This document shows, piece by piece, positions 10,158-49,289 of a DNA stretch of 64,000 bases (its first letter is position 1; the number at the start of each line of letters is the position of its first letter). The notes beneath the pieces are model-generated. The model was given only the letters and a program-made list of their open reading frames with translations. It was not told the origin of the DNA and did no database searches. This DNA comes from a virus. Where the stretch lies: positions 6,114 to 70,113 of the IMG/VR virus record IMGVR_UViG_3300042691_017212. One strand, given 5' to 3'. The position numbers and the translations under genes are program-made.

Positions 10158-11516
10158 ATGGCAATTTCTAAAAAAAGATTTGGTACGCAAAGTTCAGCAC
10201 AAGATAACTTCTTAGAGCCAAATGCTGTAACAATCAGCGGAGCTACAATGGTTTCTGGTCGCCCCTATGGAAATGGAGCAATTACATTAACTTACTCCTT
10301 GCCAGCAGCCTCTCCACCAGCAACATTATATACGTTTACATCAACACCAGCAACAACAACTCAAACTTCAACAAATAATTCAACATATACTTTTACTGGA
10401 CTATCTGGAGGTACAAGTTACACAATTACAATAACACCATCAAATGCAGCTGGTAATGGTGCATCCACCACAAGCTCTTCTGTAGCAATTGTAACTGTTC
10501 CACAGGCACCATCTGCTCCAACTGCAACTGCTCAGGTTAATCAAGATTCCGTTTCTTGGTCAGCTCCAGCAAATAATGGTGGCTCGGCAATTACTGGATA
10601 TACATTAAAATCTAGTGATGGTCCAACATACAATTATAATGCTAGTACAACATCAGCAACAATTTCAGAAACTGGTGGAACTAGCCAGACATATCAAGTT
10701 TTGGCTACAAATGCTCAGGGAAACTCGTCATATTCGGCTAGCTCTAATCAAGTTACTACACAATCGCCGTTCTTCCCATTCTTCCCACCGTTCTTCCCAT
10801 ACTTCCCACCGTTCTTCCCGTTCTTCCCGTACTTCCCACCGTTCTTCCCGTACTTCCCACCATTCTTCCCGTTCTTCCCATACTTCCCACCATTCTTCCC
10901 GTTCTTCCCGTACTTCCCACCGTTCTTCCCATACTTCCCGTACTTCCCACCGTTCTTCCCGTACTTCCCATACTTCCCACCGTTCTTCCCATACTTCCCG
11001 TACTTCCCACCGTTCTTCCCATACTTCCCATTCTTCCCAGGCTTTGGACCAAAAGTTCCAGCATACAAGTGCGTATCTGTCGATACTGAAGTTTTGGCTA
11101 AAGACGGATGGAAGAAAGTAGAAAACCTTCAGGTTGGAGATAAATTAATAACAATTCATCCAGAAGATTTTAATTACGAGACACAAAGTGCAAATATAAG
11201 TTCGTCTCAAGTTAAATTTGTAGAAACTACAATTACATCTATAGAATATAGCGAAAAGATGACTTATCAGTTGAACGATTCAGAATCTAAATACTCTGGA
11301 CAGCAACCAATATTTATCAAAGATGGAGACATCTTCTTGGCAACAACAGTAGATACAGTTCAAGAAGGTTCCATAATGCTAAAGGTTGATTCAGATGGAA
11401 ATGTCTCTGAGATTGAATTAAAGTCAATCAAGGAAATGTCAGAAACTAAGGTAGCTGATATAAAGACAGCAGAATATGGATGGCTGATCTCTAAAGATAA
11501 CGTCTTAATGTTCTAA
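10158..11516 (+). CDS. FN3-domain protein with Pro/Phe/Tyr repeat and C-terminal degenerate Hint domain
   Basis: Two FN3-like domains (VSWSAPANNGGSAITGY), a 91-residue P/F/Y-only tract, then CVSVDTEVLAKDGWKKVENLQVGD (Hint block A). Confidence 0.7.
   Translation: MAISKKRFGTQSSAQDNFLEPNAVTISGATMVSGRPYGNGAITLTYSLPAASPPATLYTFTSTPATTTQTSTNNSTYTFTGLSGGTSYTITITPSNAAGNGASTTSSSVAIVTVPQAPSAPTATAQVNQDSVSWSAPANNGGSAITGYTLKSSDGPTYNYNASTTSATISETGGTSQTYQVLATNAQGNSSYSASSNQVTTQSPFFPFFPPFFPYFPPFFPFFPYFPPFFPYFPPFFPFFPYFPPFFPFFPYFPPFFPYFPYFPPFFPYFPYFPPFFPYFPYFPPFFPYFPFFPGFGPKVPAYKCVSVDTEVLAKDGWKKVENLQVGDKLITIHPEDFNYETQSANISSSQVKFVETTITSIEYSEKMTYQLNDSESKYSGQQPIFIKDGDIFLATTVDTVQEGSIMLKVDSDGNVSEIELKSIKEMSETKVADIKTAEYGWLISKDNVLMF
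10767..11039 (+). repeat. Coding tandem repeat of 9-nt and 12-nt units encoding (P)PFF/PYF
   Basis: Only CCA, CCG, TTC and TAC codons over 273 nt. Confidence 0.95.
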
Positions 11517-11528
11517 ATTCAATATATT

Positions 11529-11565
11529 AAAATATAGGAGGGGAAACCCTCCTATATTTTATTTT
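11529..11565. terminator. Rho-independent terminator, probably bidirectional
   Basis: Perfect 14-bp stem aaaatataggaggg-GAAA-ccctcctatatttt. Confidence 0.85.
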
Positions 11566-11570
11566 GGGTA

Positions 11571-11599
11571 TTGAATATGTAAAAATGAAATGATATAAT
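11571..11599 (+). promoter_or_regulatory. Promoter TTGAAT-17-TATAAT with extended TG; leaderless start at 11606
   Basis: The -10 ends 6 nt before the ATG; no SD. Confidence 0.7.
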
Positions 11600-11605
11600 T
11601 CAAAT

Positions 11606-12349
11606 ATGGAATCAAAAACACAATACGACAATTCAGGAGACACCTGGCTATACAAAGATAGGTCAGAAACTGCTTCTAAAAGAATAGAAAGAGTTTTTGG
11701 AGATATAAAAGTAGAAAACCCAGGGCTCGGATTGAATATATATAAAAATGCTTTTACAAAAGATCAGATAGACAACATTATAAATGCACTAGAATCTAAT
11801 GTTGGAAGCGGAGTTTATAGATGGAATGAAGCCACTGTAACAAACTCAACTACACCAATTAAAAAAGCTAGAGACTGCGTTGATTTCAAGATGAGCAGAA
11901 ACTCCCTTGGCCCACGTAATGAAAAGAATGCTGCTCTGCACGATGTTTATGAAACAGTTTTTGATACTCTTAAGAAGTGCGTAGACGATTATTCTAAGTA
12001 TTGGGGCATATTTGTTAACTGGTATGAAGTTTTTAATTTTGTTAAGTATGAGGGTGAAGGAAAAGAGTTTAAGATTCATGGAGACCACGGACCAAAATAT
12101 GTGTGTACAGTTTCTGCAGTAATTTATTTAAACGATGATTACGAGGGTGGCGAAATACATTTCCCAAGGCTAGACGACATTGTAATAAAACCTTCTTATG
12201 GAGACATAGCCGTATTCCCATCAAATTATATATATGAGCATGCCTCATTGCCAATAAAAAGCGGTACAAAGTATTGTGTTGTCATAATGATGGACATTAA
12301 TGATTTGGGTCATAAAGATAACCCATATGCAGTAAAGGTGGAACAGTAG
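11606..12349 (+). CDS. 2OG-Fe(II) oxygenase, prolyl 4-hydroxylase-like (Lys-type)
   Basis: HGD...YLNDDYEGGE...EHASLPIKSGTKY. Confidence 0.85.
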   Translation: MESKTQYDNSGDTWLYKDRSETASKRIERVFGDIKVENPGLGLNIYKNAFTKDQIDNIINALESNVGSGVYRWNEATVTNSTTPIKKARDCVDFKMSRNSLGPRNEKNAALHDVYETVFDTLKKCVDDYSKYWGIFVNWYEVFNFVKYEGEGKEFKIHGDHGPKYVCTVSAVIYLNDDYEGGEIHFPRLDDIVIKPSYGDIAVFPSNYIYEHASLPIKSGTKYCVVIMMDINDLGHKDNPYAVKVEQ

Positions 12350-13032
12350 TGGAACCAGTAGTTGAATCACAAAATGAAATAAAGCAAACCTGGAGCTTAA
12401 AAGAAGATATGGGGAATGGTATCTGGGTATATAGAGATGTTCTTCCAAAAGATTTAGACATCATAAACAGACTAGAGTCTATTCTTGGGGCTTCAAATAA
12501 TTCTTTTAATTGGCAGCCAGCATATGTAGGCTATATGGAAAGAATGCCAGAATATAGAGATTGTGTAGATTTTAAATATAAAAAAGAAAATTTAATTGGT
12601 TATCCAACACAAGCAGCAAAAGATTTAGTTCAAATTTGGCAAGACTGTTATGATAGAAAATCTGAAGCAGTAAAAGATTATTGCAAGATGTATAACATAC
12701 AAGAATTAAGATACTGGGAGTCTTTTAATTTTGTTAAGTATGAACCAGGACATCATTTTATGGAGCATCATGATCATGGGTACTCATACAACTGTACCGT
12801 TTCTTTGGTCTCATATTTAAATGATGATTATGAGGGTGGAGAGATTTATTTTAGATTACAGCAGCTTAACATAAAACCAAAAGCTGGGGACTTATATGTA
12901 TTCCCTTCTAACTTTATGTATCCTCATCAAGCAATGCCAGTAAAGTCTGGAACTAAATACTCATTAGTTACAATGTTAGATTATAGTTCAAAGTATCATA
13001 ACCCTAAGTTCTATCAAGAAACAGGGGACTAA
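12349..13032 (+). CDS. 2OG-Fe(II) oxygenase, prolyl 4-hydroxylase-like (Lys-type)
   Basis: HHD...YLNDDYEGGE...HQAMPVKSGTKY. Confidence 0.85.
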   Translation: MEPVVESQNEIKQTWSLKEDMGNGIWVYRDVLPKDLDIINRLESILGASNNSFNWQPAYVGYMERMPEYRDCVDFKYKKENLIGYPTQAAKDLVQIWQDCYDRKSEAVKDYCKMYNIQELRYWESFNFVKYEPGHHFMEHHDHGYSYNCTVSLVSYLNDDYEGGEIYFRLQQLNIKPKAGDLYVFPSNFMYPHQAMPVKSGTKYSLVTMLDYSSKYHNPKFYQETGD

Positions 13033-13754
13033 TGTCTATACTGAAGGCGTATCAGTCACATGAAAATGCATTAAAGATAACTCCAATGCCAATGCAGAGA
13101 TATTGGGCAGAGGACACTTTTGCACGACACGCCTATCATTGTTTTCCAGTAACTACAGCAAATACTATAGGGTGGTATTTATCTTCTAAATACAGAATTG
13201 TTTTTGAGTGGGACGGAATATATCCAGATCCAACTGGAGAACATTTAACAATTATAGAAGGACAAGATTATTGTCACTCTAAAAGAGGGCATTTAACATT
13301 AAGTATAGGTACTGGATTAAAATTTACATCAGATAAAAATATTAGCTTGTGGACAATCAATCCAGTTAATTATTTTAATAAAGATTGGGAGGTTATGTCA
13401 TCCCTTATTAGTACTTCTTTTTATAACCAAGAACTTCCTTTAGCTCTTAGAGTGATTTCTCCAAATAAAAAAATTGTTATAGAGCCAGGAGAACCAATAG
13501 CAACAATTGTTCCAATATCTTTAAGTTTATTAAAAAATGAATCAATAGACATTTATGATTGGCATATGACAGCAGAATATACACAATATAACAAAGAGTA
13601 TGGAGAGGCTGCTGCACAAAAAAATATGCGTGGAATATGGACGGATTGGTACAGAGATGCAGTAAATTATAAAGGAGAAAAAATAGGAGAACATGAAGCC
13701 AAAGCACTTAAGCTTAAGGTGAATAACTATTCAGAAAGATTTAAGGATGAGTAA
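13032..13754 (+). CDS. DUF6065-like protein
   Basis: HAYHCFPVTTANTIGW and IEPGEPIATIVP motifs; lies within the oxygenase cluster. Confidence 0.55.
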   Translation: MSILKAYQSHENALKITPMPMQRYWAEDTFARHAYHCFPVTTANTIGWYLSSKYRIVFEWDGIYPDPTGEHLTIIEGQDYCHSKRGHLTLSIGTGLKFTSDKNISLWTINPVNYFNKDWEVMSSLISTSFYNQELPLALRVISPNKKIVIEPGEPIATIVPISLSLLKNESIDIYDWHMTAEYTQYNKEYGEAAAQKNMRGIWTDWYRDAVNYKGEKIGEHEAKALKLKVNNYSERFKDE

Positions 13755-14490
13755 TAAAATAAGATTTGTTGCTAATAGGCCATGGTTAGATAAGGACAGT
13801 TTTGGTGCACCCACTACAATACTAAAAACAATTCCAGACTGGTATAGAAAGGCTGACAGGTTTGCAAAAAACCAAAAGGGTGATTTTGTTATCGGACCCG
13901 ATAAAGGAAAGATACCAACGTGGAAAGCTTGTCCAGCAGTATTTGATGTTATGGGTACTGGGTATGCTTATGTAACTCCTTATGACATAGAATTTTTTAT
14001 AAATGATAGGGGCGTGATTGATGCCAAGATATTGAATAATGAAAACAGTCCATCATTTTATCCAAGTTTAGTTACCCCAAGACCTCCAATGCCCCAGTTT
14101 CATCATCCAGAAGGATACTACAAAGATCATTTTGCTTGGTTCCCAGAGTGGGCAATAGAGACCCCAGAAGGATATAGCGCACTGTATGTTCACCCATTAA
14201 ATAGATATGAACTTCCATTCTTTACAGTTAGCGGGATTATTGACAATGACGATGTTAACCTCCCAGGTTCAATGCCGTTTTTTGTAAGGGAGGGATTTGT
14301 TGGTATAATTGAGGCAGGTACCCCGTTTGCACAAATAATACCTTTTAAGCGTGAAGATTGGGAATCCGAAATCATTATAGAAAGTAAATATGATTTAGCT
14401 AGAAAAAATGCAATTAACTCACAAAGATTTAGAAGACCAAATGGTGGGGTATATAAAAATGAGGTTTGGTCTCAAAGGAAATATACATGA
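13747..14490 (+). CDS. DUF6065-related protein (dUTPase-like beta fold suspected)
   Basis: TWKACPAVFDVMGTGY, TPEGYSALYVHPLNR, SGIIDND and GTPFAQIIPFKRE motifs. Confidence 0.55.
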   Translation: MSNKIRFVANRPWLDKDSFGAPTTILKTIPDWYRKADRFAKNQKGDFVIGPDKGKIPTWKACPAVFDVMGTGYAYVTPYDIEFFINDRGVIDAKILNNENSPSFYPSLVTPRPPMPQFHHPEGYYKDHFAWFPEWAIETPEGYSALYVHPLNRYELPFFTVSGIIDNDDVNLPGSMPFFVREGFVGIIEAGTPFAQIIPFKREDWESEIIIESKYDLARKNAINSQRFRRPNGGVYKNEVWSQRKYT

Positions 14491-15164
14491 AAAAAGACTA
14501 TGCTAATGATATGGAATGGCTACAGAATAGAGTTTCTATAACTCCCTCTGGGTTTTTCGGTTCCTCACCAGAAATGATTCAATCTAGAGAAAATTTTATG
14601 ACAGATAAAGAATTAGAATTTTTGTCTAGTCAAGCTAGATCTATTGATGAGTGGGATATAACAGAAACACACTATAATGAAGAAGGCACAATAATATACT
14701 ATTCTGAATACTGGAAAGATCGTGTGGCTTCTAGACCGATATTGGATAAAAAGGATCCTATGATTGCTAGAACTATAGATGGCATGGTTGCAAGATTAAA
14801 AAAAGAAGTAGATAGTTTTTTTAAAGTCAATGCCATACCAACTAGTCCAGCTATAGTTAGATGGATGCCTGGATATAAGCAAGAGCCTCATGCAGACAAA
14901 GAACTTCATATTGGAGATGACGCAGGAAAGCCAAATGATTTTCCATATTATGATTTAGCAGGATTGTTTTATTTAAATGATGATTATGAAGGCGGAGAGT
15001 TATATTTTCCAAATCAAGAAATTAAATTTAAGCCAAAAGCAGGGGCAGCATATTTTTTCCCAGGAGATAAAAATTTTATTCACGGCGTATCAGAAATAAC
15101 TTCTGGAATTAGATATGTGATACCGTTTTTCTGGACTATAGCAGAACATGTAGGAGATAATTAA
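14487..15164 (+). CDS. 2OG-Fe(II) oxygenase (Arg-type); start revised to ATG 14487
   Basis: HAD...YLNDDYEGGE...HGVSEITSGIRY. ATGA overlap with the upstream stop. Confidence 0.85.
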   Translation: MKKDYANDMEWLQNRVSITPSGFFGSSPEMIQSRENFMTDKELEFLSSQARSIDEWDITETHYNEEGTIIYYSEYWKDRVASRPILDKKDPMIARTIDGMVARLKKEVDSFFKVNAIPTSPAIVRWMPGYKQEPHADKELHIGDDAGKPNDFPYYDLAGLFYLNDDYEGGELYFPNQEIKFKPKAGAAYFFPGDKNFIHGVSEITSGIRYVIPFFWTIAEHVGDN

Positions 15165-15166
15165 AA

Positions 15167-16003
15167 ATGTCAATTAACTTTATAGAAATATTTCCAAAAA
15201 TTCATGTATACCCAAATGCATTAGAAAATACAGATTTTTGGATAAAGGATTCTTTAAATGGCTCACATCAATGGAATGATTGGGGAATGTATGGTAAAGC
15301 ATTTTCAACTTCTCAAAATCTTGTAATCCATGAAAAATTCCCAGAGTTTGATCAGTTTTATAAGAATGCAATAAATGAAAGTCACTACCCTTCTTTTGCG
15401 GACGTGTACGGAAAAGCTTTTTACAAAAACACTAAGCACTGGCTAGAAATGTATCCTATGGAATTGGATAACTGGATAAGTTCTGCACCAGCAATATGCC
15501 AGTATACATTAGGGCCAAAAAATGGTCATGGTACTACGTTCGTAATGGCTTATCATTCTGATTATACAATAGGAGAAGAAACTTGGCCTGGAGATAAATT
15601 TGAATTAACTGCAACACTTTATTTAAACGATGACTATGAAGAAGGAGAGATTTGTTTTGTTGTAAAAAATACAGATGGAACAGATACTAGGTTTTCTTAT
15701 AAACCAAAAGCTGGAGACATGATGGTTTTTCCAGCAAGACCTCCTTATTTTCATGCAGTAAAAAGAGCTTATGGAGATAATAGATACATAGTAAGATCAT
15801 TTTGGCAGTGTAGAAAAGATGGAGACGCTGCTTGGCATGAAGGCATTGAAAAATATGGTAAAGAAAAATGGAACGAAATGAAGATGGCAGAAATCCATGA
15901 GTATAGACAAAAGCATATCCCTAATCCAGAAATATACGCAGACAGTTACAACAGAGACAATGAAAGGCTAGGATTAAATCCAGATGGAACTTTTAAAGTT
16001 TGA
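15167..16003 (+). CDS. 2OG-Fe(II) oxygenase (Arg-type)
   Basis: HSD...YLNDDYEEGE...HAVKRAYGDNRY. Confidence 0.85.
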   Translation: MSINFIEIFPKIHVYPNALENTDFWIKDSLNGSHQWNDWGMYGKAFSTSQNLVIHEKFPEFDQFYKNAINESHYPSFADVYGKAFYKNTKHWLEMYPMELDNWISSAPAICQYTLGPKNGHGTTFVMAYHSDYTIGEETWPGDKFELTATLYLNDDYEEGEICFVVKNTDGTDTRFSYKPKAGDMMVFPARPPYFHAVKRAYGDNRYIVRSFWQCRKDGDAAWHEGIEKYGKEKWNEMKMAEIHEYRQKHIPNPEIYADSYNRDNERLGLNPDGTFKV

Positions 16004-16763
16004 TGACCTTGTTATAAAAGAAATCGATACTAGTACATTTATTTACATGAAAAATGAACCCAACAATAAGGGTGTTTTAAATGTACCAGAAAATAAAATT
16101 GTTGAAATACCAAATTTTATTACACCAGATGCTCCAGAAAGACTGATACATTACTTTGAAAATTGCGGAGTAGAATGGGGAGATATTGCTTTTTATGGAT
16201 CCTCTGGAAAGGGTTTAAAGCCTGATGCTGCAAAGTTAGCAGAAAGCGGACTACCCTCAACTTTCTTTGAAGACATAAAGTCTAAGTTTCAAGAATCTGT
16301 AGAGACTGTTTTTGGCAAAAAAGTAAGAGCTAATACTTCCCATGCACAGAAGTGGGATGTCGGAGGATTCGCCCCACCGCATTCAGATAATTCTGACAAT
16401 GATGGAACCCCAAATGCGTTTGAAATAAATAAATATGTTGCAATCTTGTATTTAAATGACAACTATGAAGGTGGAGAGTTGTTCTTTTTAACAGGGTGGC
16501 CAGGAGAAACATGGCTTTCCTTTAAGCCAAATAAGTATTCTTTAATTGTTTTCCCAGGAGGCGTAGAAAATATTCACGGAGTTTCAGAAATAACAAAAGG
16601 AACTAGATACACGATGGTGTCATTTTGGGACTTTGCAGATTTAGAGTATGACAAAGAAACTCTAACAAAATGGGAAGAAATGACAAAAGTGGTAAGGCAA
16701 GAGCAGGCTGTACAAAAAGAAGAATGGAAGGCAGGCATAGGCCTACCTCCAAAAGATAACTAG
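15984..16763 (+). CDS. 2OG-Fe(II) oxygenase (Arg-type)
   Basis: HSD...YLNDNYEGGE...HGVSEITKGTRY. Confidence 0.85.
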   Translation: MELLKFDDLVIKEIDTSTFIYMKNEPNNKGVLNVPENKIVEIPNFITPDAPERLIHYFENCGVEWGDIAFYGSSGKGLKPDAAKLAESGLPSTFFEDIKSKFQESVETVFGKKVRANTSHAQKWDVGGFAPPHSDNSDNDGTPNAFEINKYVAILYLNDNYEGGELFFLTGWPGETWLSFKPNKYSLIVFPGGVENIHGVSEITKGTRYTMVSFWDFADLEYDKETLTKWEEMTKVVRQEQAVQKEEWKAGIGLPPKDN

Positions 16764-16772
16764 TGATATAAT
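16764..16772 (+). promoter_or_regulatory. Extended -10 TGATATAAT; leaderless start at 16779
   Basis: The -10 ends 6 nt before the ATG. Confidence 0.6.
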
Positions 16773-16778
16773 TTTAAA

Positions 16779-18539: not shown

Positions 18540-18601
18540 TTTTGTCATTATGATTGACAAAAGCTGGACTTGAGGCATTGAAAGTGGTAAAATAATTACC
18601 T

Positions 18602-18946
18602 ATGGATATCAAAAAAACAAATGCTAAATTTAAAGAAAACGAAACCAGGCTAGGGGTTTATGTTTGGGAGATGCCTGATGGCCGATGGATAGGCGACGAT
18701 GAAGGTAATTTTCTTTCAATAAGCTCAATGAGGGATAATCGAGACAGAATAAATTTATTGGCCAAGGCAGTAAGAGGTTATGGAATCCATGAGGGTGGCC
18801 CTAAATTCCTTGAAGGAAGTAGGCAAATCGACGATGAAGAATTTGAGTATCAAAAGCAAAGATTAAGGTGGGGCCTAACTCCAGACCCATTAGATATTGG
18901 TGTACATAAAGACGAAATGGCTAAATTAAGGAAGGGCAAACAATGA
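18602..18946 (+). CDS. Hypothetical protein upstream of portal
   Basis: Clean ORF after TGGTAAAAT; ATGA overlap with the portal gene. Confidence 0.65.
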   Translation: MDIKKTNAKFKENETRLGVYVWEMPDGRWIGDDEGNFLSISSMRDNRDRINLLAKAVRGYGIHEGGPKFLEGSRQIDDEEFEYQKQRLRWGLTPDPLDIGVHKDEMAKLRKGKQ

Positions 18947-20523: not shown

Positions 20524-20541
20524 TCCTACTCAACTAGTTAT

Positions 20542-20570
20542 TTGCCTTTAGATATATAGAAGTCTATAAT
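20542..20570 (+). promoter_or_regulatory. Promoter TTGCCT-17-TATAAT, near-leaderless
   Basis: The -10 ends 8 nt before ATG 20579. Preceded by hairpin gttgagtag/ctactcaac over the portal stop. Confidence 0.65.
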
Positions 20571-20578
20571 ATACACAT

Positions 20579-21913: not shown

Positions 21914-21932
21914 GGGTAGGTGAAAATAACTA

Positions 21933-26178: not shown

Positions 26179-26179
26179 T

Positions 26180-39733: not shown

Positions 39734-39739
39734 AAATAA

Positions 39740-40087
39740 ATGACAATAGAAGCTGGTAAAATTGCCCCAATTATTTCTGATAACGATAAACTGTTAGCAG
39801 AAGTTTGGAAGGCTAAGCCAAAGGAACAGTTTAAAGGAGTCAACGGCTCTTTTCCGTTTGGCAGTTCGGGATCTGTATCAGGTGGACCAAAAGACCCAGA
39901 AGACCCATCTGAAAAAGGAAGACCTCAACTTAGCGATATCCAATATCTAGGATCAGAAACTTATTATGATGCTTCTGGAATGCAAATGGCAAAATCTAAA
40001 TTTAGAATTTATAATTCTAGTGGAGAAGAACTAGAAAAGTATGCATTGATAATTACCCTATCTGATCAACAAGGAGGACGGGCATGA
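39740..40087 (+). CDS. Hypothetical tail-region protein
   Basis: Clean ORF coupled to the next gene. Confidence 0.55.
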   Translation: MTIEAGKIAPIISDNDKLLAEVWKAKPKEQFKGVNGSFPFGSSGSVSGGPKDPEDPSEKGRPQLSDIQYLGSETYYDASGMQMAKSKFRIYNSSGEELEKYALIITLSDQQGGRA

Positions 40088-40944: not shown

Positions 40945-40945
40945 T

Positions 40946-44083: not shown

Positions 44084-44091
44084 CGTGAATC

Positions 44092-47000
44092 GTGCCTATA
44101 TATAGAAAAGCAAATCCTGGAGATCCTGGTGAGTCAGGCGGATGGATAAGATTAAAAAACATATATCGAAAAGCAGACCCTGGAGATCCTGGTGAGTCAG
44201 GCGGATGGATAAAGTTAAAATCAGTTTGGAGATTTTTGGGTGGGTCTTCCTGGGAAAGAGTATTTGGAATTTTATGTCCTTACTCTACTGGCTCTGAAAA
44301 TGTTCCAAAGTTTTACTTTATAGAATCTCCATACACGTCTACAGCAAACAAAAGCCAAGACGCAGATAGGTACTCTGGAGCGGCGTGGCAAAACTCAAAA
44401 ATTTATATAACAAGAGGTAAATGGGAAGAAAGCCCAATATACTTTGAGTTTACATTTCAAAAATCTTTAAATGGCGGAAGCTTTACAAATATAGGAAGTC
44501 CAATAGTAAAAACATATACTTCTTATAATGATAATCAATCTACCGATTTTTTTCCTGCATCATCATCAAATTGGCCTCTTATATCTCTTAGCGATGTACA
44601 AAATTCTGCTAAGTATAGAGTTAAGGTAAGAGCATCAGACACTAATCCTGCTTCAGAATCAGATTTGGATTGCTCTCTTGTTTATTACCCAATAGAAAAT
44701 GGCATATCTCCAAGACTTAAATTTGCTTTTAATCCATATGGAGCAGACAATGACCCAAATATTAGCGGTGTTTCAGAAAATCAATCTTTGTCTAATTATG
44801 TAAATAAACAATTAGCTATACAATGGAGATACAACACTACTTTAGTTCCTACTAACCAAAATTCTAATTCATACAAGCATCAGATTGTCTGGATGGAATC
44901 TATGGAAGGGGAAGTAGTTTTTGGACCAATAGACGTTCCAGTTACTAATACTGCTACTCAGTCGTATACAATAAATTATCCTCAGTCTGTAGCAGACGCT
45001 GGAGGGGAATATGTTGTTAATGTTTTAACAGTTGCAAATGATGGTTACTGGTCAGCAAATTCTTTACAAGGCCATATAGACAGTCTGGAAGAAACAAGTA
45101 ATTTAGCTAGCTTCTTATGGACACTTCCAACCAAACCAGTAACAGATAATACTCATGATATAGGATCTAATTCTAAAAATAATAGAGGAAGAATAGGATC
45201 TACAGCAGTACTGCTTTCAAAAGGAAATTGGACAAAGGTAACAGAAGAAACTACATATCTGTATAAAATGAGGATATACGACACTAATCCTTTAGACCCC
45301 ATTGATGTTATTTCAAATGATACTGGAGTTTTTTCTATATCAAGTCAATATGTTGGTAAGCAAGCAAGATTTACAGTTACGGCAACAAACCCTGGAACAT
45401 CACTATTAATAAATAGACAGACAGAGTCTATTGGAAAAGACTATAGCATAGACAGTCCACCTGTAGTAACAATAACTTCTCCAACAAGTAATGTTATATC
45501 CGCAAATACTAATTTTCAGATAGAAGCAACTATAACCAATTACCCAACACAAATTACTGTTAATACCACCATTGCAGGTGCCTCTGCAGCTAAAGATGGT
45601 TCATCTGACTACAACAATGTCGTAATATCAATTCCATCAAATACTGCTATATATGATTACTCAAGCCCACAATTGCAATATCCATCTGGTGGAAATAGAT
45701 TAATACAAATTACAGCTGAGCCAGAAGGATCTTATGATTTTAAAAATATAACAGTGCCACTTTCCTCTATAACTCCAGGAACAGTAGAGCTAGTACAACC
45801 TTGCGGAGATGGGAAATTTGCAGTGGGAGACTACTTTAATATTGTACCAGTAGGCTGGGTTGGAGACAATGGAGGAGATCCCGATCTAATATTAAATTAT
45901 CAATATCGTTATTTTGTCAATGGAGTTCCAAGAGAGTATAACGACGAGATACCAAATAGAATTGGAGATTTCGGAGAGTCAGTAGGCGATGTGGTTAGAG
46001 GTGAAGTTAAGTCAGCATTTTTAAATCCAATTGATTTATCTAAGAGTGTGGAGACAGACTGGATACCTTCTCAAAATTATACAATTGTTGCTGGTCCAAC
46101 ATACGGCGACTGGGGATTCTGGAGCATTTGCACAGATGTAGATGGTGTAAAGAAAAGTTCAAGATCAAGAACAGAAACTGTTTGCGGAGTCACCACTACT
46201 AAAACAGAAACAAAGAATTGCGGATGGTATTGTACAACAGTTGGTCAAGGAGCTACATGTACTTGCACACAAACCGTAGAAGCTACAAACATAAGTGGAA
46301 CTGGTTCTGGATTTTCTACATCATGTAGTGAATCAGGATTTCCTTCATGCCAAGCACCATGTACATGTAATTCAACAGAAGAGGCAAAATGTACTGCATG
46401 GGTTAGAACCTATACGGCTGATTGGTCCGCTTTTGGAGAATGTTCTGCAACTGTATTCGGAATTCCTGGAACAAAAACTCAAACTCGACCTTATGTTGAA
46501 ACTAGAATTTGCCCAACTGGATCTAGTTCAACTAATGAAAATGGAGTTACAACATTAATACTACCCTCGCCTTGCCAAACTTCCAGAACTGGAACTCATG
46601 TAAATTCTGTTTCATGTTGTAAGGTTGGAACAGAGACATTTGATCCAAGAACAATATATGGTCAATATTCTGAATGGACTGCATGCGGCACTGCCCCATC
46701 TAAATCAACAAGAACTAGAAATATTACTCAAAGAGTTAGTACTAGAACTTATAATGAAGATTGTACCTATACAGATGGCACTAGCGACACTGTTACTGTA
46801 GATACCGAAACTGCTGATTGCTGGTATTGTACAGAAAATTATCAAGGGGTTAATTGCATTCCATGTGGATACTCAACTGCAATTTTTAATAATAGTGGAA
46901 GTGGTTCTGGTTACATCAGGTCTTGCAGCACTGCTGGATATCCGTCATGTTCAATAAATTGCGTTTGTAATTCTACTGAAGAAAGTAAATGTACAAATTG

Positions 47001-48690
47001 GTCTTCATGGAGTGAATGTACTGGACCTACTGGGGCCAAAACAAGAACTAGGACAAGAACTTGTCCGTCTGGATCTCCATGCATAACAACAGAAACTCAA
47101 GATTGCTGGTATTGTACAGATAGTTATAATTCAAATTGTGCTGGTTGCGGGTACCATATTGAAGGATCTAATGTTTCTGGTGGAGGAAATTCTTTTTATT
47201 CTACAGCTTGTAGTAGAACAGACTTTCCGTCATGCCAAACATCATGCGTTTGCAACTCCACCTTAGAGTCTCAATGTGGAGGCTGGAGTAGAGTCGAAGG
47301 CACTTCGACTGATTGGAGCGCATGTAATGCAATTGGAGACACACCTGGTAGACAATGTAAAACTACTCCATACACACAAACAAGGACATGCCCTGCAGGC
47401 AGTCCATGTGTTACATCTGAATCTGGAAGTACACAACAATGTAGAGACTGCTGTACAGCAAAAACAACTTGCGATACCCCAGTAGTTACATATGGAACTC
47501 CAACAGAATGGAGTGCTTGCTCAGGAAATCCACCTACTCAAACTAGGTCTATGCCTAGAACTACCAAGACAACATGTACTACTAGAGCAGTAGATTGCTC
47601 AGAATCAACTAGCACTACAACTGTAAATGATACATATGTAGAAACTAGAAGTTGCTGGTACTGTACAACAAGCGTAAGTCAAAATTGTGCAGGGTGTACT
47701 GAAACTATAGAAGGAAGCAATATAAGTCAGAGTGGTTCTGGATATTCAATTAGCTGTAGTCAGGCAGGATTCCCATCTTGCGGAACACCCTGCTCATATT
47801 GGTGGTGCAAAACCACAAGACAAGAGTCTGGATATTGTGCTTTGAGCGGACCACATACGTCAAGTCAAGCTGGTGTTTCAGGAGGAGGATTTGTTACTGT
47901 TTGCCAGCAGGCTGTTTCGCAGCCATATAGCTGTCAACAATCCCCAGCACCGTTCTTCCCGTACTTCCCACCGTTCTTCCCGTACTTCCCGTACTTCCCA
48001 CCGTTCTTCCCGTACTTCCCGTACTTCCCACCGTTCTTCCCGTACTTCCCGTACTTCCCACCGTTCTTCCCGTACTTCCCAACTTTCGTTATTGATACTA
48101 TCAATACTATTAACACTATCAATACTATTAACACTATCAATACCATTAACACTATCAATACCATTAACACTATCAATACTATTAACACTATTGATACTGG
48201 CGGTGGTGGTGGATGCCACGTTGTAGGAACTAAAATTCAAATGTCAGATGGGACATTTAAAAACATTGAAGATCTTTATATTGGGGATGAAGTAATGGCA
48301 GCAAACATACCAGGATTGCCAGACAATGAAACTGATATAAACAATTTAGAATTGTGGTCATCTGAAGATATTTCTGGGACAACAAAGACTATAGCTAATG
48401 TGACAAATGTTATCATTAGATCCTATGAACAATATTATTTAATTAATAATTCTATCAAGATAACCTATGAGCACATGGTTCCAGCCAACCAAGAAGGAAT
48501 CTGGAAGTTTATAAAGGTAGAAGATTTACAGATAGGCGATATCATTGTTAATGAAAACTTAGAGAATATAGTAGTTATGTCAAAAGATTTAATTAATGAT
48601 TCAGTAAACACAGTTTCAATTGACATTGAGGATAAAGATGTTTATTTTGTTGAGGGCCTAATGGCACACAACTTGAGCGCAAAGACATAG
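44092..48690 (+). CDS. Mosaic receptor-binding-type protein: Ig-like domains, Cys-rich TSR-like repeats, P/F/Y repeat, (INT)n repeat, C-terminal Hint domain
   Basis: WSSWSECT..RTRTRTC; PFFPYFP repeats; G5-CHVVGTKIQMSDGTFKNIEDLYIGDEV..TYEH..YFVEGLMAHN. Confidence 0.75.
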   Translation: MPIYRKANPGDPGESGGWIRLKNIYRKADPGDPGESGGWIKLKSVWRFLGGSSWERVFGILCPYSTGSENVPKFYFIESPYTSTANKSQDADRYSGAAWQNSKIYITRGKWEESPIYFEFTFQKSLNGGSFTNIGSPIVKTYTSYNDNQSTDFFPASSSNWPLISLSDVQNSAKYRVKVRASDTNPASESDLDCSLVYYPIENGISPRLKFAFNPYGADNDPNISGVSENQSLSNYVNKQLAIQWRYNTTLVPTNQNSNSYKHQIVWMESMEGEVVFGPIDVPVTNTATQSYTINYPQSVADAGGEYVVNVLTVANDGYWSANSLQGHIDSLEETSNLASFLWTLPTKPVTDNTHDIGSNSKNNRGRIGSTAVLLSKGNWTKVTEETTYLYKMRIYDTNPLDPIDVISNDTGVFSISSQYVGKQARFTVTATNPGTSLLINRQTESIGKDYSIDSPPVVTITSPTSNVISANTNFQIEATITNYPTQITVNTTIAGASAAKDGSSDYNNVVISIPSNTAIYDYSSPQLQYPSGGNRLIQITAEPEGSYDFKNITVPLSSITPGTVELVQPCGDGKFAVGDYFNIVPVGWVGDNGGDPDLILNYQYRYFVNGVPREYNDEIPNRIGDFGESVGDVVRGEVKSAFLNPIDLSKSVETDWIPSQNYTIVAGPTYGDWGFWSICTDVDGVKKSSRSRTETVCGVTTTKTETKNCGWYCTTVGQGATCTCTQTVEATNISGTGSGFSTSCSESGFPSCQAPCTCNSTEEAKCTAWVRTYTADWSAFGECSATVFGIPGTKTQTRPYVETRICPTGSSSTNENGVTTLILPSPCQTSRTGTHVNSVSCCKVGTETFDPRTIYGQYSEWTACGTAPSKSTRTRNITQRVSTRTYNEDCTYTDGTSDTVTVDTETADCWYCTENYQGVNCIPCGYSTAIFNNSGSGSGYIRSCSTAGYPSCSINCVCNSTEESKCTNWSSWSECTGPTGAKTRTRTRTCPSGSPCITTETQDCWYCTDSYNSNCAGCGYHIEGSNVSGGGNSFYSTACSRTDFPSCQTSCVCNSTLESQCGGWSRVEGTSTDWSACNAIGDTPGRQCKTTPYTQTRTCPAGSPCVTSESGSTQQCRDCCTAKTTCDTPVVTYGTPTEWSACSGNPPTQTRSMPRTTKTTCTTRAVDCSESTSTTTVNDTYVETRSCWYCTTSVSQNCAGCTETIEGSNISQSGSGYSISCSQAGFPSCGTPCSYWWCKTTRQESGYCALSGPHTSSQAGVSGGGFVTVCQQAVSQPYSCQQSPAPFFPYFPPFFPYFPYFPPFFPYFPYFPPFFPYFPYFPPFFPYFPTFVIDTINTINTINTINTINTINTINTINTINTINTIDTGGGGGCHVVGTKIQMSDGTFKNIEDLYIGDEVMAANIPGLPDNETDINNLELWSSEDISGTTKTIANVTNVIIRSYEQYYLINNSIKITYEHMVPANQEGIWKFIKVEDLQIGDIIVNENLENIVVMSKDLINDSVNTVSIDIEDKDVYFVEGLMAHNLSAKT
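44116..44212 (+). repeat. 34-nt exact direct repeat, 63-nt period
   Basis: cctggagatcctggtgagtcaggcggatggataa at 44116 and 44179. Confidence 0.85.
47950..48081 (+). repeat. Coding tandem repeat encoding PFFPYFP(YFP), 44 codons
   Basis: 30-nt unit ccgttcttcccgtacttcccgtacttccca x3 flanked by 21-nt units. Confidence 0.95.
48091..48198 (+). repeat. 9-nt coding repeat IDT(INT)10IDT
   Basis: Alternating atc aat ac(t/c) and att aac act units. Confidence 0.95.
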
Positions 48691-48707
48691 GAGCTAAAGG
48701 ATAAAAA

Positions 48708-49289
48708 ATGATTACAGAAAACCTAGGTAATAATATATATATGTATAAAAATGTTATTTCTGAAGATTTAGATATTTTGTCTGAGCTTAATAAAATATTG
48801 TCTGACTATAATAAAGATTACAATGCTGCAACAATAAATAATCATGACTACGATACATCTTTAAGGTCTTGCACCGTATTCTCTTTATATCCAACTTTTG
48901 GGGAAGATAAACAGTTTAATAATGCAAAAACTATTCTTAATAAAAAAATAGATATGGCTCTTTCTGAATGCATATTGCACTTTATTAAAAATACAGGAAT
49001 TAAAATAAAAGAAAGAGAGCCATGGGAAATATTAAAATACGAAATATCGCAAAAGCTTACATGGCACAGCGACGATGGTAAAAGTCATCCAGCAACCATC
49101 TCGTTTGTTTATTATATAAACGATGACTATGAGGGCGGGGAGATACAGTTTAGAGATCTTCTTGATAAAATTCCTATAAAGCCTGAAAAAAATAGTTTAA
49201 TAATTTTTCCATCAGACGCAAAATATGTGCATAGGGTGCTTCCAGTAACATCTGGAGTAAAGCATGCAGTAATATCTTTTGGTAAATAA
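48708..49289 (+). CDS. 2OG-Fe(II) oxygenase, prolyl 4-hydroxylase-like (Lys-type)
   Basis: WHSD...YINDDYEGGE...HRVLPVTSGVKH. Confidence 0.85.
   Translation: MITENLGNNIYMYKNVISEDLDILSELNKILSDYNKDYNAATINNHDYDTSLRSCTVFSLYPTFGEDKQFNNAKTILNKKIDMALSECILHFIKNTGIKIKEREPWEILKYEISQKLTWHSDDGKSHPATISFVYYINDDYEGGEIQFRDLLDKIPIKPEKNSLIIFPSDAKYVHRVLPVTSGVKHAVISFGK

What the first reader, a model, noticed from the sequence alone, without database searches (positions are those of the whole stretch)
10158..49289. Candidate new system, present twice: [virion protein + Pro/Phe/Tyr repeat + C-terminal Hint domain] followed directly by a prolyl-hydroxylase-like oxygenase
Seen: two otherwise unrelated proteins (10158..11516, FN3-based; 44092..48690, Ig/Cys-rich) both end in a pure P/F/Y repeat followed within 10-45 residues by a Cys-initiated Hint-like domain. 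Each is the last gene of a fibre cluster. In both loci the next gene (11606; 48708) is a 2OG-Fe(II) oxygenase with Lys at the 2OG-binding position (GTKY, GVKH). Known: collagen/plant-type prolyl 4-hydroxylases use this Lys and act on Pro-rich tracts; Hint domains form an N-terminal thioester and can self-cleave or ligate a nucleophile, as in hedgehog and BIL domains. Inference: a post-translational maturation module in which the aromatic polyproline tract is hydroxylated and the Hint domain releases, caps, cross-links or cyclises it. The product would be a modified virion surface adhesin or a RiPP-like peptide.
Basis: partly seen in the sequence, partly recalled or inferred. Interest (0 to 1): 0.92.

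Follow-up and report, generated by a model that had tools for sequence, protein, structure and literature searches.

The report
Self-cutting phage fibre caps with hydroxylases
An uncultured phage ends two fibre-cluster proteins in a proline/phenylalanine/tyrosine tract plus an intein-like domain, each followed by collagen-hydroxylase-like genes; one enzyme is predicted to dock on the intein-like domain, a testable idea of how phages might chemically tailor fibres.

Summary
ORFs 10158-11516 and 44092-48690 each end in a pure P/F/Y tract (91 and 44 residues), then a Cys-initiated Hint domain. The next gene is a PF13640 oxygenase in both loci.

The two loci are not equivalent:
- Locus 2 has a complete A-type BIL-like Hint (Cys1, TxxH, His-Asn, Lys-bearing tail) with its oxygenase 17 nt downstream. 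Its P/F/Y tract is absent from 12 of 12 relatives, which carry (TIN)n, and is an exact substring of the locus-1 tract, so it is probably an intragenomic copy.
- The locus-1 Hint has the fold but lacks the block-B His and the His-Asn. A complete relative lacks it altogether. A terminator-like hairpin separates it from a battery of five oxygenases.

Across viral contigs, Hint genes are followed at once by an oxygenase in 18 of 74 cases, against 7 of 463 other genes. Aromatic-Pro proteins are followed in 63 of 134 cases, against 130 of 635, with or without a Hint. Most Hint-capped phage proteins have no oxygenase.

A complex prediction supports the locus-2 oxygenase docking on the Hint (0.81; best control 0.00).

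No chemistry is shown. This scan noted the same module earlier on other genomes. I found no paper on it.

The parts
10158..11516 (+). Locus-1 protein (452 aa): FN3 region, P/F/Y tract, degenerate Hint. It is the last gene of a fibre-like block upstream of the portal gene.
   Evidence: ORF and translation. fn3 E 8e-8. Relatives L011-L014 keep the architecture.
10767..11039 (+). P/F/Y tract, residues 204-294 (37 P, 42 F, 12 Y). DNA period is 30/60 nt.
   Evidence: Codons are 42 of 42 TTC and 12 of 12 TAC.
11070..11516 (+). Hint domain of locus 1 (P0001, 148 aa). Cys1 is kept, block B reads S-G-Q-Q instead of T-x-x-H, there is no C-terminal His-Asn and no tail.
   Evidence: hhalign 96.3%. Family profile E 4.4e-12. 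AF2 pLDDT 87.1 with Foldseek hits 2LWY E 3.4e-6 and 1AT0 TM 0.76/0.78. Motif columns.
11528..11561 (+). Terminator-like hairpin (15-bp stem followed by a T run) between the locus-1 gene and the oxygenase battery.
   Evidence: The core hairpin is conserved in relative L012.
11571..11599 (+). Promoter-like site (TTGAAT, 17 nt, TATAAT, with TG) ahead of the first oxygenase gene.
   Evidence: The same site is present in L012. This is a consensus match only.
11606..12349 (+). 2OG-Fe(II) oxygenase, P4H type (247 aa), first of the battery.
   Evidence: PF13640 E 1.8e-10. Best solved relatives are LH3 lysyl hydroxylase E 8e-4 and B. anthracis P4H. 33% identical to the 48708 enzyme over 192 aa.
12349..13032 (+). 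2OG-Fe(II) oxygenase (227 aa).
   Evidence: PF13640 E 1.1e-14.
13032..14490 (+). Two DUF6065/phrog_7084 paralogs (13032-13754 and 13747-14490) inside the battery.
   Evidence: DUF6065 E 3.7e-24. phrog_7084 E 6e-8 and 1.4e-29.
14466..16763 (+). Three more 2OG-Fe(II) oxygenases (14466-15164, 15167-16003, 15984-16763).
   Evidence: PF13640 E 8.2e-9, 1.3e-7 and 1.7e-9. Six matches in the whole record.
44092..48690 (+). Locus-2 protein (1532 aa), the last tail-block gene. It has a Cys-rich middle (61 Cys in residues 640-1290), then the P/F/Y tract, (TIN)n, Gly5 and the Hint.
   Evidence: Relatives L001-L010, L020 and L021.
47950..48081 (+). P/F/Y tract of locus 2, residues 1287-1330. It is an exact substring of the locus-1 tract and is absent from 12 of 12 relatives.
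   Evidence: (97% nucleotide identity over 132 nt).
48082..48213 (+). Linker TFVID(TIN)n...TIDTGGGGG. The 18-nt unit occurs 5.3 times and copy number varies among relatives.
48214..48690 (+). Complete A-type BIL-like Hint (P0002, 158 aa): Cys1, T84-x-x-H87, H152-N153, then the tail LSAKT.
   Evidence: Invariant columns. Profile against PDB gives BIL2 E 2e-12 and 2LWY E 2.4e-11. Tail Lys rule holds in 111 of 115.
48708..49289 (+). 2OG-Fe(II) oxygenase (193 aa), 17 nt after the Hint gene. It is predicted to dock on the Hint through residues 72-103.
   Evidence: PF13640 E 5.1e-14. H120, D122 and H175 are invariant in 7 of 7 orthologs, with K in 6 and R in 1. Complex prediction 0.81 against 0.00.
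49345..49813 (+). Two small downstream genes: an 80-aa protein with a W-D-G-x-x-F motif, and a Cys-rich DUF6171-like protein. The listed ORFs overlap and the true starts are uncertain.
   Evidence: DUF6171 E 1.9e-6. DUF6171-like genes recur after Hint genes in L024, L026 and L029.

Best explanation
These are two copies of a modular C-terminal cassette that a group of uncultured phages attaches to fibre-cluster proteins. The cassette is a short-period repeat stalk followed by a bacterial-intein-like (A-type BIL) Hint domain.

Locus 2
- The Hint is catalytically complete. I infer that it makes a thioester at Gly1374|Cys1375 and removes itself. The thioester would be resolved by water or by the conserved Lys of its 5-residue tail, as in the isopeptide-forming BIL2 domain. 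Asn1527 would cut off the tail.
- The co-transcribed P4H-type oxygenase (48708) uses the Hint as a docking handle and modifies the fibre end before the Hint leaves. The target residue is unknown. It cannot be only proline, because relatives carry (TIN)n.

Locus 1
- The Hint keeps Cys1 and the fold but has lost the block-B His and the His-Asn. It is at best an N-cleavage-only or non-cleaving cap.
- The aromatic polyproline tract is the likeliest substrate of the separately transcribed battery of five oxygenases.
- The P/F/Y tract at locus 2 was copied from locus 1.

Shown by computation: the architecture, the homology, the motif conservation, the gene linkage and the predicted docking.
Inferred: the cleavage, the ligation, the hydroxylation and the substrate.
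For: Hint
- The profile hits BIL2 at E 2e-12 and 2LWY at E 2.4e-11.
- T84, H87, H152 and N153 are invariant in 30 of 30 sequences.
- The search found 1742 clusters at E <= 1e-3. In 125 of the best 150 the Hint ends within 20 residues of the C-terminus.
- The +1 residue is never Cys. 111 of 115 short tails hold a Lys, where 26 are expected.
- BIL2 forms a Lys isopeptide with the upstream C-terminus (PMC8616854, passages read).

Linkage
- An oxygenase is the next gene in 17 of 22 loci whose Hint is at least 41% identical to this one.
- 18 of 74 Hint genes have an oxygenase starting within 300 nt, against 7 of 463 other genes.
- The pair sits in different contexts: the tail end in L023 and L024, and fibre blocks in L026, L028 and L030. 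At least three oxygenase subfamilies are involved.
- In canonical-Hint loci the oxygenase start overlaps the Hint gene's stop or lies at most 17 nt after it.

Docking
- ipSAE was 0.81 (runs 0.82, 0.78 and 0.81) against a best control of 0.00.
- The runs agree in at least 39% of contacts, and the partner pLDDT is at least 69.
- The tool's mark was reached by 58 of 80 solved complexes and by 2 of 110 mismatched pairs.
- The interface joins oxygenase residues 72-103 to Hint residues 21-24, 38-43, 62-68 and 137-140.

Tract and oxygenases
- 63 of 134 aromatic-Pro proteins have an oxygenase starting within 300 nt, and 92 of 134 within 1.5 kb. Other genes of the same loci give 130 and 269 of 635.
- PBCV-1 P4H hydroxylates that virus's own Pro-rich repeats (PMC3634087, passage read).

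Copying
- The 44-residue locus-2 tract is an exact substring of the locus-1 tract, and 12 of 12 relatives lack it.
Against: - No chemistry of any kind has been shown.
- The conserved locus-2 tract (TIN)n has no Pro.
- The predicted interface includes neither the repeat, nor the Gly|Cys junction, nor the HxD/H site.
- Predicted interface residues are not better conserved than the rest. On the Hint side, identity in L023, L024 and L028 is 0.33-0.39 at the interface against 0.50-0.59 elsewhere. On the oxygenase side it is 0.18-0.41 against 0.36-0.42.
- 52 of 77 records with a Hint gene hold no PF13640 match.
- In Dickeya phage AD1 and phage NCTB the C-terminal Hint is followed by structural genes, not by an oxygenase. 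The Hint therefore works without an oxygenase.
- Among aromatic-Pro proteins without a Hint, 63 of 91 still have an oxygenase within 1.5 kb.
- After dereplication, only 24 of 49 protein clusters have an oxygenase within 1.5 kb.
- The locus-1 ortholog in a 100%-complete relative has the tract and the battery but no Hint.
- A terminator-like hairpin and a promoter-like site separate the locus-1 gene from the battery.
- Linked loci are mostly kin of one broad phage group, so the counts are not independent.
- These genomes are rich in oxygenases: 6 in this 70-kb record and 11-12 in relatives.
Confidence: 0.45

Rival explanations
1. Gene order without function. The Hint is only a self-removing cap or folding aid, like the auto-cleaving chaperone domains of tail spikes. 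The repeats are spacers of variable length. The oxygenases act on something else, such as small molecules, host proteins or nucleic acids. On this view they sit next to fibre genes because this phage group carries many of them in variable regions.
For: - 52 of 77 records with a Hint gene have no oxygenase match.
- AD1 and NCTB have a C-terminal Hint but no oxygenase after it.
- There are 6 oxygenases in this 70-kb record and 11-12 in complete relatives.
- A terminator-like hairpin lies between the locus-1 gene and the battery.
- Among control genes in repeat-centred loci, 130 of 635 are already followed by an oxygenase within 300 nt.
- Iyer et al. 2010 proposed secondary-metabolite roles for the tandem dioxygenase array of cyanophage Syn9 (PMC2938197, passages read).
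Against: - Immediate adjacency is 18 of 74 for Hint genes against 7 of 463 for other genes.
- The pair recurs in different genomic contexts with different oxygenase subfamilies.
- Starts overlap or nearly overlap in canonical-Hint loci.
- The docking prediction scored 0.81 against 0.00 for the controls.
Confidence: 0.27
2. Ligation rather than release. The Hint's thioester is passed to an amine. In cis this would be the conserved tail Lys, giving an isopeptide-capped fibre end. In trans it would be a Lys of another virion or host-surface protein, giving a covalent cross-link or attachment. The oxygenase would act on the Hint or its tail, not on the stalk.
For: - 111 of 115 tails hold a Lys, where 26 are expected, and the +1 residue is never Cys.
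- The closest solved relative, BIL2, makes a Lys isopeptide.
- A Gly run precedes Cys1 in many family members.
- The oxygenase is predicted to touch the Hint and not the repeat.
- The best solved match of the 11606 enzyme is a lysyl hydroxylase, LH3, at E 8e-4.
Against: - No product is known.
- According to the review passage in PMC7765530, A-type BILs cleave but do not ligate the flanking sequences.
- The locus-1 Hint has no tail at all.
- The predicted interface does not include the tail or the junction.
Confidence: 0.15
3. The BIL domain and the repeats are mainly variability devices. They would serve as recombination-prone junctions that let phages swap fibre tips, as proposed in general for BIL domains. 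The Hint and the oxygenase would have no specific biochemical role in the finished virion.
For: - N-terminal parts differ widely (334 to 1532 aa) in front of the same repeat-Hint cassette.
- Repeat copy number differs between close relatives.
- The P/F/Y tract moved between loci.
- BILs are described as lying in hypervariable regions of non-conserved proteins (PMC7765530, passage read).
Against: - The catalytic residues are invariant in 30 of 30 sequences, and the tail Lys is kept in 111 of 115. This argues for selection on the chemistry.
- Cys1 is kept in 49 of 50 Hint-bearing aromatic-Pro proteins, including the degenerate types.
Confidence: 0.1

Closest known systems
A-type bacterial intein-like (BIL) domains, e.g. 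Clostridium thermocellum BIL (PDB 2LWY)
   Same: - Mini Hint fold with no endonuclease.
- Cys1, block-B TxxH and a conserved C-terminal His-Asn.
- No nucleophile at +1.
- Located in variable, non-conserved proteins.
- The profile hits 2LWY at E 2.4e-11. The locus-1 model matches it at TM 0.70/0.74. The defining features come from PMC7765530 (passages read).
   Different: - Here the domain sits at the very C-terminus of phage virion-type proteins, behind a tandem-repeat stalk and a Gly run.
- The tail is only 2-25 residues long and almost always holds a Lys.
- In one phage group a hydroxylase gene follows.
- The locus-1 copy lacks the TxxH His and the His-Asn.
BIL2 domain of the Tetrahymena thermophila BUBL1 polyubiquitin-like locus (PDB 6TMM, 6Y75)
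   Same: - It is the best solved sequence relative of the family (E 2e-12).
- It joins the C-terminus of the upstream domain to a Lys side chain as an isopeptide, without ATP (PMC8616854, passages read).
- The conserved tail Lys here fits that chemistry.
   Different: - BIL2 lies between two ubiquitin-like domains and dispenses a ubiquitin-like protein.
- Here the upstream part is a fibre protein and the downstream part is a few residues.
- No ligation has been shown here.
Chlorovirus PBCV-1 prolyl 4-hydroxylase with the virus's own (Pro-Ala-Pro-Lys)n repeats
   Same: A virus encodes a P4H-type 2OG oxygenase together with Pro-rich repeat proteins that the enzyme hydroxylates (PMC3634087, passage read). 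The enzymes here belong to the same Pfam family, PF13640.
   Different: - The PBCV-1 case is a eukaryotic virus with a single enzyme, no Hint and no aromatic tract.
- Here there are batteries of 1-5 (up to 12 per genome) divergent enzymes.
- The tracts include ones without Pro.
- Sequence similarity to solved P4Hs is weak (E 0.014-0.2).
Tandem dioxygenase array of Synechococcus phage Syn9 (Iyer, Abhiman, de Souza, Aravind 2010)
   Same: A phage carries a tandem array of many unrelated 2OG dioxygenases of unknown role (PMC2938197, passages read).
   Different: - That array includes a JmjC-type member and halogenases, and was proposed to make secondary metabolites.
- In the passages I read, no repeat protein or Hint domain was linked to it.
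- Its supplementary data were not seen.
Hedgehog C-terminal autoprocessing (Hog) domain (PDB 1AT0)
   Same: A Hint at the C-terminal end of a secreted or structural protein releases the N-terminal part through a thioester. The locus-1 model matches it at TM 0.76/0.78.
   Different: - The hedgehog domain has a sterol-recognition region after the Hint and transfers cholesterol.
- Here the tail is 0-5 residues.
- At locus 2 the His-Asn of inteins is present.
Intramolecular chaperone auto-cleaving domains of phage tail spikes and fibres (Peptidase_S74; recalled, not from a call)
   Same: They work alike: a C-terminal domain of a phage fibre removes itself after assembly.
   Different: The fold and chemistry are unrelated. 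Neither protein gave a Pfam match to that family.

Membership tests
Hint superfamily, A-type BIL domain | Hint (hedgehog/intein) fold | tested here: met
   Locus 1: the AF2 model has pLDDT 87.1 and Foldseek matches 2LWY, 6Y75, 1AT0 and inteins at E 3e-6 to 1e-3. Locus 2: shown by profile only, with E 2e-12 and 2.4e-11 to solved BILs. Its own 4-sequence model was poor (pLDDT 51).
Hint superfamily, A-type BIL domain | N-terminal Cys (or Ser) nucleophile at the junction | tested here: met
   Cys305 (locus 1) and Cys1375 (locus 2). Cys1 is invariant in relatives and present in 49 of 50 Hint-bearing aromatic-Pro proteins.
Hint superfamily, A-type BIL domain | Block-B Thr-x-x-His | tested here: inconclusive
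   Locus 2 meets it: T-Y-E-H, with T84 and H87 invariant in 30 of 30. Locus 1 does not: it reads S-G-Q-Q. The same C-S-Q type occurs in 10 further proteins, plus 3 that are C-S-Q with His-Asn, out of 50.
Hint superfamily, A-type BIL domain | Conserved C-terminal His-Asn with no Cys/Ser/Thr needed at +1 | tested here: inconclusive
   Locus 2 meets it: A-H-N followed by Leu. Among 115 tails, +1 is never Cys, is Ser in 6 and Thr in 4. Locus 1 does not: the protein ends ...DNVLMF with no His-Asn.
Hint superfamily, A-type BIL domain | No homing endonuclease; sits in variable, non-conserved proteins | tested here: met
   The domains are 148 and 158 aa. The carrier proteins range from 212 to 1640 aa with unrelated N-terminal parts.
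Hint superfamily, A-type BIL domain | Auto-cleavage at the N- and/or C-terminal junction | not testable with these tools
   Needs expression and mass spectrometry.
P4H-type 2OG-Fe(II) oxygenase (Pfam PF13640, 2OG-FeII_Oxy_3) | Match to the family model over its curated cut-off | tested here: met
   Six of six matches score over 27 bits: ORFs 11606, 12349, 14466, 15167, 15984 and 48708.
P4H-type 2OG-Fe(II) oxygenase (Pfam PF13640, 2OG-FeII_Oxy_3) | His-x-Asp...His iron triad and a basic residue for the 2OG carboxylate | tested here: met
   In the 48708 type, H120, D122 and H175 are invariant in 7 of 7, with Lys in 6 and Arg in 1. The Lys aligns with the Arg of LH3 and PKHD hydroxylases. The role of that residue is recalled knowledge.
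P4H-type 2OG-Fe(II) oxygenase (Pfam PF13640, 2OG-FeII_Oxy_3) | Hydroxylation of peptidyl proline | not testable with these tools
   Solved relatives include prolyl, lysyl and PKHD-type hydroxylases at weak E-values (8e-4 to 0.2). Specificity cannot be read from the sequence.
RiPP-like system (precursor peptide, tailoring enzyme, leader removal) | Small dedicated precursor whose core peptide is released as the product | tested here: not met
   The carriers are 452 and 1532 aa proteins with FN3 or Cys-rich domains, at the ends of fibre and tail gene blocks. Only the logic resembles a RiPP: a recognition handle that is later removed.
Hedgehog-type Hog domain | Sterol-recognition region after the Hint | tested here: not met
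   Zero (locus 1) or five (locus 2) residues follow the Hint.

The most novel reading that the evidence does not exclude
The Hint domain is a removable recognition handle. It recruits a dedicated hydroxylase to the end of a phage fibre, which is RiPP logic on the scale of a whole virion protein. It then spends its thioester on the conserved tail lysine or on another protein's amine. The result would be a hydroxylated fibre tip that is covalently capped or cross-linked. The aromatic polyproline tract would be a hydroxylated adhesive stalk, comparable to the Pro/Tyr repeats of plant and mussel structural proteins (that comparison is recalled, not from a call).
Probability: 0.18. Interest if true: 0.85.

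Novelty: new variant of a known kind. Interest (0 to 1): 0.64.

Why it matters
- Phage oxygenases of the 2OG family are abundant in aquatic viral genomes and have no established substrate.
- Hint-type domains at the ends of phage structural proteins form a large family: 1742 clusters at 50% identity. I found no paper that describes it.
- This locus gives a concrete pair that can be expressed: a 250-residue fibre end and a 193-residue enzyme, with a predicted contact surface.
- A positive result would assign a first substrate class to these enzymes.
- It would also show post-translational tailoring of phage fibres.
- It would add a self-removing, ATP-free ligation or cleavage module with a short Lys tail to the protein-engineering toolbox.
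- A negative result would send the oxygenase question back to small molecules or host targets.

Tried and rejected
- DNA search of 10158-13032 against deposited phages gave no match.
- PHROGs gave no family for either carrier protein.
- phmmer of the locus-2 Hint alone against PDB gave no hit. The 30-sequence profile was needed.
- BLASTP between the two Hints was only marginal (E 0.003). Profile methods settled the homology.
- The AlphaFold2 model of the locus-2 Hint from a 4-sequence alignment was poor (pLDDT 51) and was not used. The second and last structure job went to the locus-1 domain.
- The word-indexed protein search for the locus-1 Hint found only 3 clusters.
- Pfam on the Cys-rich middle of the 44092 protein found nothing, even at E <= 1. 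The 'Ig' label and a thrombospondin-like reading by eye both remain unsupported.
- I first read the codon bias of the tracts as proof of a shared DNA origin and then rejected that. The same bias holds in 172 tracts of other phages: TTC is 85% inside and 28% outside. It is therefore a general property. With the codons fixed in this way, 97% nucleotide identity adds little beyond the identical peptide.
- Predicted interface residues are not more conserved than the rest, so conservation gives no independent support for the docking.
- My first home-made oxygenase HMM missed 4 of 23 loci that PF13640 finds. After adding seeds it found 23 of 23, plus one extra locus, L037.
- Literature searches for a C-terminal Hint on phage fibres returned only terminase inteins.
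- I considered the hedgehog-type sterol transfer and RiPP readings and set them aside (see the membership tests).

Full report
**Observation**

- ORF 10158-11516 (452 aa) has an FN3 match (E 8e-8). Residues 204-294 consist only of P, F and Y (37, 42 and 12). A 10-residue linker follows, then Cys305 at codon 11070.
- ORF 44092-48690 (1532 aa) has 65 Cys. Residues 1287-1330 consist only of P, F and Y. A 44-residue linker follows, made of (TIN)n and five Gly, then Cys1375 at codon 48214.
- The tracts are strong tandem repeats with a 30/60-nt period (scores 246-325 and 255).
- The next genes, 11606 and 48708, match PF13640 over its cut-off.
- 'Ig' was not confirmed.

**Setting**

The window is most of a 70,113-bp viral contig, estimated 60% complete. 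GC is 36.6%.

- It has an HK97-type portal, protease and capsid at 18943-22967 and a 2706-aa tape measure protein at 27731.
- The portal is 57-59% identical to those of about 130-kb Streptomyces phages.
- Locus 2 is the last gene of the tail block. Locus 1 closes a fibre-like block upstream of the portal.
- The record holds six PF13640 genes. Five lie in a battery at 11606-16763 together with two DUF6065 paralogs. The sixth is at 48708.

**The Hint domains**

- A 30-sequence alignment of the locus-2 type keeps T84, H87, H152 and N153 invariant.
- Its profile hits the Tetrahymena BIL2 domain (E 2e-12), the C. thermocellum BIL 2LWY (E 2.4e-11) and, more weakly, inteins.
- The locus-2 domain therefore has every sequence mark of an A-type BIL as the review passage defines it (PMC7765530): Cys1, TxxH, a terminal His-Asn, no +1 nucleophile and no endonuclease.
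- The locus-1 domain is a true homolog. hhalign gives 96.3% probability and E 1.8e-9, and the family profile gives E 4.4e-12.
- The locus-1 domain also has the fold: pLDDT 87.1 and Foldseek matches to 2LWY, BIL2 and hedgehog 1AT0 at TM 0.67-0.78. The alignment used for that model included canonical Hints.
- Its block B reads S-G-Q-Q, and the protein ends without His-Asn or a tail.
- This degenerate type recurs. Of 50 Hint-bearing aromatic-Pro proteins, 32 are canonical, 10 are C-S-Q without His-Asn, 3 are C-S-Q with His-Asn, 2 are C-S-E, 2 are C-S-H-H-N and 1 is of another type. Cys1 is kept in 49 of 50.
- The CASP paper cites a report that flanking sequence can compensate for the block-B His in one intein. 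I saw only the reference title, so activity of the locus-1 domain is open.

**A large family of C-terminal Hint caps**

- The locus-2 profile finds 1742 clusters (50% identity) at E <= 1e-3, and 480 at E <= 1e-10.
- In 125 of the best 150, the Hint ends within 20 residues of the protein's C-terminus.
- The stretch before Cys1 is usually a Gly run preceded by a low-complexity tract. These tracts can be PT-rich, collagen-like, or aromatic/Pro repeats. By eye I counted 12 with aromatic repeats, plus 2 with VGVSP repeats, among the 150.
- 115 of the 150 have a His-Asn and a tail of 1-25 residues. The other 35 were left out because no His-Asn was found there or the tail was longer or absent.
- Of those 115 tails, 111 hold a Lys where 26 are expected. 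The +1 residue is never Cys.
- BIL2, the closest solved relative, makes a Lys isopeptide with the upstream C-terminus (PMC8616854).
- Cultured phages have the same cap. tblastn found 58 records, mostly Erwinia, Dickeya and Yersinia jumbo phages, annotated as virion structural proteins.
- In Dickeya phage AD1 and phage NCTB the Hint is C-terminal and is followed by structural genes, not an oxygenase.

**Co-occurrence, starting from the Hint**

- A scan of viral contigs with the conserved motif returned 80 loci, the best 80 of 96 confirmed.
- PF13640 was then searched in 77 of their records; 3 were not held. 25 records have a match.
- The oxygenase is the very next gene in 17 loci. All 17 are among the 22 loci whose Hint is at least 41% identical to this one. 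It is also the next gene in L069, where the Hint is internal.
- With a local oxygenase HMM checked against PF13640 (23 of 23 loci recovered, one extra), 18 of 74 evaluable Hint genes have an oxygenase starting within 300 nt. The figure for other genes of the same loci is 7 of 463. Within loci that hold any oxygenase it is 18 of 24 against 7 of 145.
- These loci are kin, so the Fisher values are not probabilities of independent events.
- By Hint identity below 60%, I count about seven lineages among the 17.
- The pair sits in different contexts. In L023 and L024 it is at the tail end, as here. In L026 and L030 it is in the locus-1 position, with canonical Hints and (PPVYSN)n or (PPPYDNTYYN)n tracts. 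In L028 it is inside a fibre block.
- The adjacent enzymes fall into at least three subfamilies.
- The tracts before oxygenase-linked Hints are TIN/TVN, NTQ/ATQ, GGSTNS, PVQNTQ, PPVYSN and PPPYDNTYYN. Loci with PT-rich, poly-Gly or collagen-like linkers had no oxygenase.
- Exceptions are L029, where a DUF6171-like gene follows directly, and L025, where the oxygenases lie 7.6 kb away.

**Co-occurrence, starting from the repeat**

- Two degenerate DNA patterns, for PFFPYFPPFF and PPFFPPFF, found 57 and at least 120 viral stretches.
- Of 174 loci, 155 hold 172 ORFs with an aromatic-Pro window. 134 ORFs were evaluable. I dropped 13 that were open at the 3' end and 25 with less than 1.5 kb downstream.
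- 43 of the 134 carry a Hint.
- An oxygenase starts within 300 nt in 29 of 43 with a Hint and in 34 of 91 without. Within 1.5 kb the counts are 29 of 43 and 63 of 91. Control genes give 130 and 269 of 635.
- After single-linkage clustering (60% identity over 50% of the shorter protein), 24 of 49 clusters have an oxygenase within 1.5 kb: 6 of 9 with a Hint and 18 of 40 without.
- The tract-oxygenase link is therefore frequent and above background, does not depend on the Hint, and is far from universal.

**The two loci are not two copies of one system**

1. The locus-2 P/F/Y tract is absent from 12 of 12 relatives (L001-L010, L020, L021), which carry only (TIN/TID/TVN)n.
2. Its 44 residues are an exact substring of the locus-1 tract, with 4 mismatches in 132 nt. 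I read this as an intragenomic copy.
3. A second genome, G009, also has the same FFxPP repeat type in both of its Hint proteins.
4. The locus-1 ortholog in a 100%-complete relative, G005, has FN3 plus (PPFFPPGFFS)n and no Hint. A protein with two W-D-G-x-x-F motifs follows, and then the battery.
5. A 15-bp terminator-like hairpin (11528-11561) and a promoter-like site (11571-11599) lie between the locus-1 gene and the battery. Both are conserved in L012.
6. In canonical-Hint loci, by contrast, the oxygenase start overlaps the Hint gene's stop or lies at most 17 nt after it.

**Docking prediction**

- I folded the 48708 enzyme (7-row alignment) with the last 247 residues of the 44092 protein (7-row alignment).
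- ipSAE was 0.82, 0.78 and 0.81. The three controls scored 0.00.
- The runs agree in at least 39% of contacts, and the partner pLDDT is at least 69.
- The tool's mark was reached by 58 of 80 solved complexes and by 2 of 110 mismatched pairs. The tool notes that these counts hold only roughly when the user's own alignments are supplied.
- The model supports binding; it does not show it.
- The interface joins enzyme residues 72-103, in the N-terminal part, to Hint residues 21-24, 38-43, 62-68 and 137-140. It does not include the repeat, the junction or the iron site.
- Interface residues are not better conserved than the rest.
- The 11606 and 12349 enzymes share this N-terminal part with the 48708 enzyme (33% and 32% identity over 192-198 aa).

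**Mechanism**

- Most likely (0.45): the repeat stalk plus Hint is a modular fibre end. At locus 2 the Hint excises itself through a Gly|Cys thioester and serves as the docking handle for the co-transcribed hydroxylase, which modifies the fibre end first. At locus 1 a degenerate Hint caps an aromatic polyproline tract that is the likeliest substrate of the separately transcribed battery.
- Shown by computation: the architecture, the homology, the motif conservation, the linkage and the predicted docking.
- Inferred: the cleavage, the tail-Lys chemistry, the hydroxylation and its target.
- Rivals: gene order only, with other substrates (0.27); ligation as the main purpose (0.15); variability device (0.10).

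**Comparison and novelty**

- The parts are known kinds: A-type BIL domains and P4H-type oxygenases.
- Viral P4H acting on a virus's own Pro-rich repeats is known from PBCV-1 (PMC3634087).
- Tandem dioxygenase arrays in phages were described for Syn9, with a secondary-metabolite proposal (PMC2938197).
- What I did not find in print is threefold:
  - a C-terminal Hint cap family on phage structural proteins with a conserved tail Lys;
  - its pairing with a hydroxylase;
  - aromatic polyproline tracts as candidate substrates.
- I therefore class it as a new variant of a known kind.
- Earlier notes of this scan describe the same module on other genomes. Their leads on BIL2, the tail Lys and the Syn9 paper were checked here.
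- One note claims that the enzymes appear only where the repeat is proline-rich. That does not hold for the TIN, NTQ and GGSTNS loci seen here.

Noticed in passing
window 10767-11039 and 47950-48081; loci L099 onward: Inside aromatic-Pro tracts the codons are strongly non-standard for these AT-rich phages. Over 172 ORFs, TTC is 85% inside against 28% outside, TAC 67% against 31%, and CCG 26% against 4%. In this window, 60 of 60 Phe codons are TTC and 20 of 20 Tyr codons are TAC. Avoidance of T runs or selection on translation are possible causes; neither was tested.
   Followed up: partly
loci L265, L182, L173, L233, L169, L163 (tails printed): In other phages the same PPFF-type tract ends in a small Cys-rich knot instead of a Hint, or simply in ...PPAFK or ...FIRAY. 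The tract looks like a general stalk that carries exchangeable tips.
   Followed up: no
window 49345-49813; L024 8235-8597, L026 7588-7812, L029 648-887; L098 8464-8868: A small Cys-rich DUF6171-like protein (E 1.9e-6) and a small protein with W-D-G-x-x-F motifs recur downstream of Hint genes or beside the oxygenases. In L029 the DUF6171-like gene follows the Hint gene directly, with no oxygenase.
   Followed up: partly
window 13032-14490: Two DUF6065/phrog_7084 paralogs sit inside the oxygenase battery. They recur with it in relatives L030, L074, L085, L086 and L097. Their function is unknown.
   Followed up: no
window 46000-47950 (residues about 640-1290 of the 44092 protein): This region holds 61 Cys, with repeated C-W-Y-C-T and W-S-x-W/W-S-A-C motifs that look thrombospondin-type-1-like by eye. 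Pfam finds nothing, even at E <= 1.
   Followed up: partly
window 44098-44220 and 5344-5480: There are two further coding tandem repeats. One is a 63-nt unit repeated twice at the N-terminus of the 44092 protein. The other is a 72-nt unit repeated 1.9 times in the fibre-like gene 4994-6490.
   Followed up: no
records G003, G005, G006 (relatives of about 115 kb): Complete or near-complete relatives carry 11-12 PF13640 matches each, in four or five clusters. This is a large share of a 115-kb phage genome.
   Followed up: no
window 6920-10141: This 1073-aa fibre-like protein has an Mtd_N domain (E 3.5e-15) and matches to tail-fibre, minor-tail and head-decoration PHROGs. It directly precedes the locus-1 gene.
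   Followed up: no
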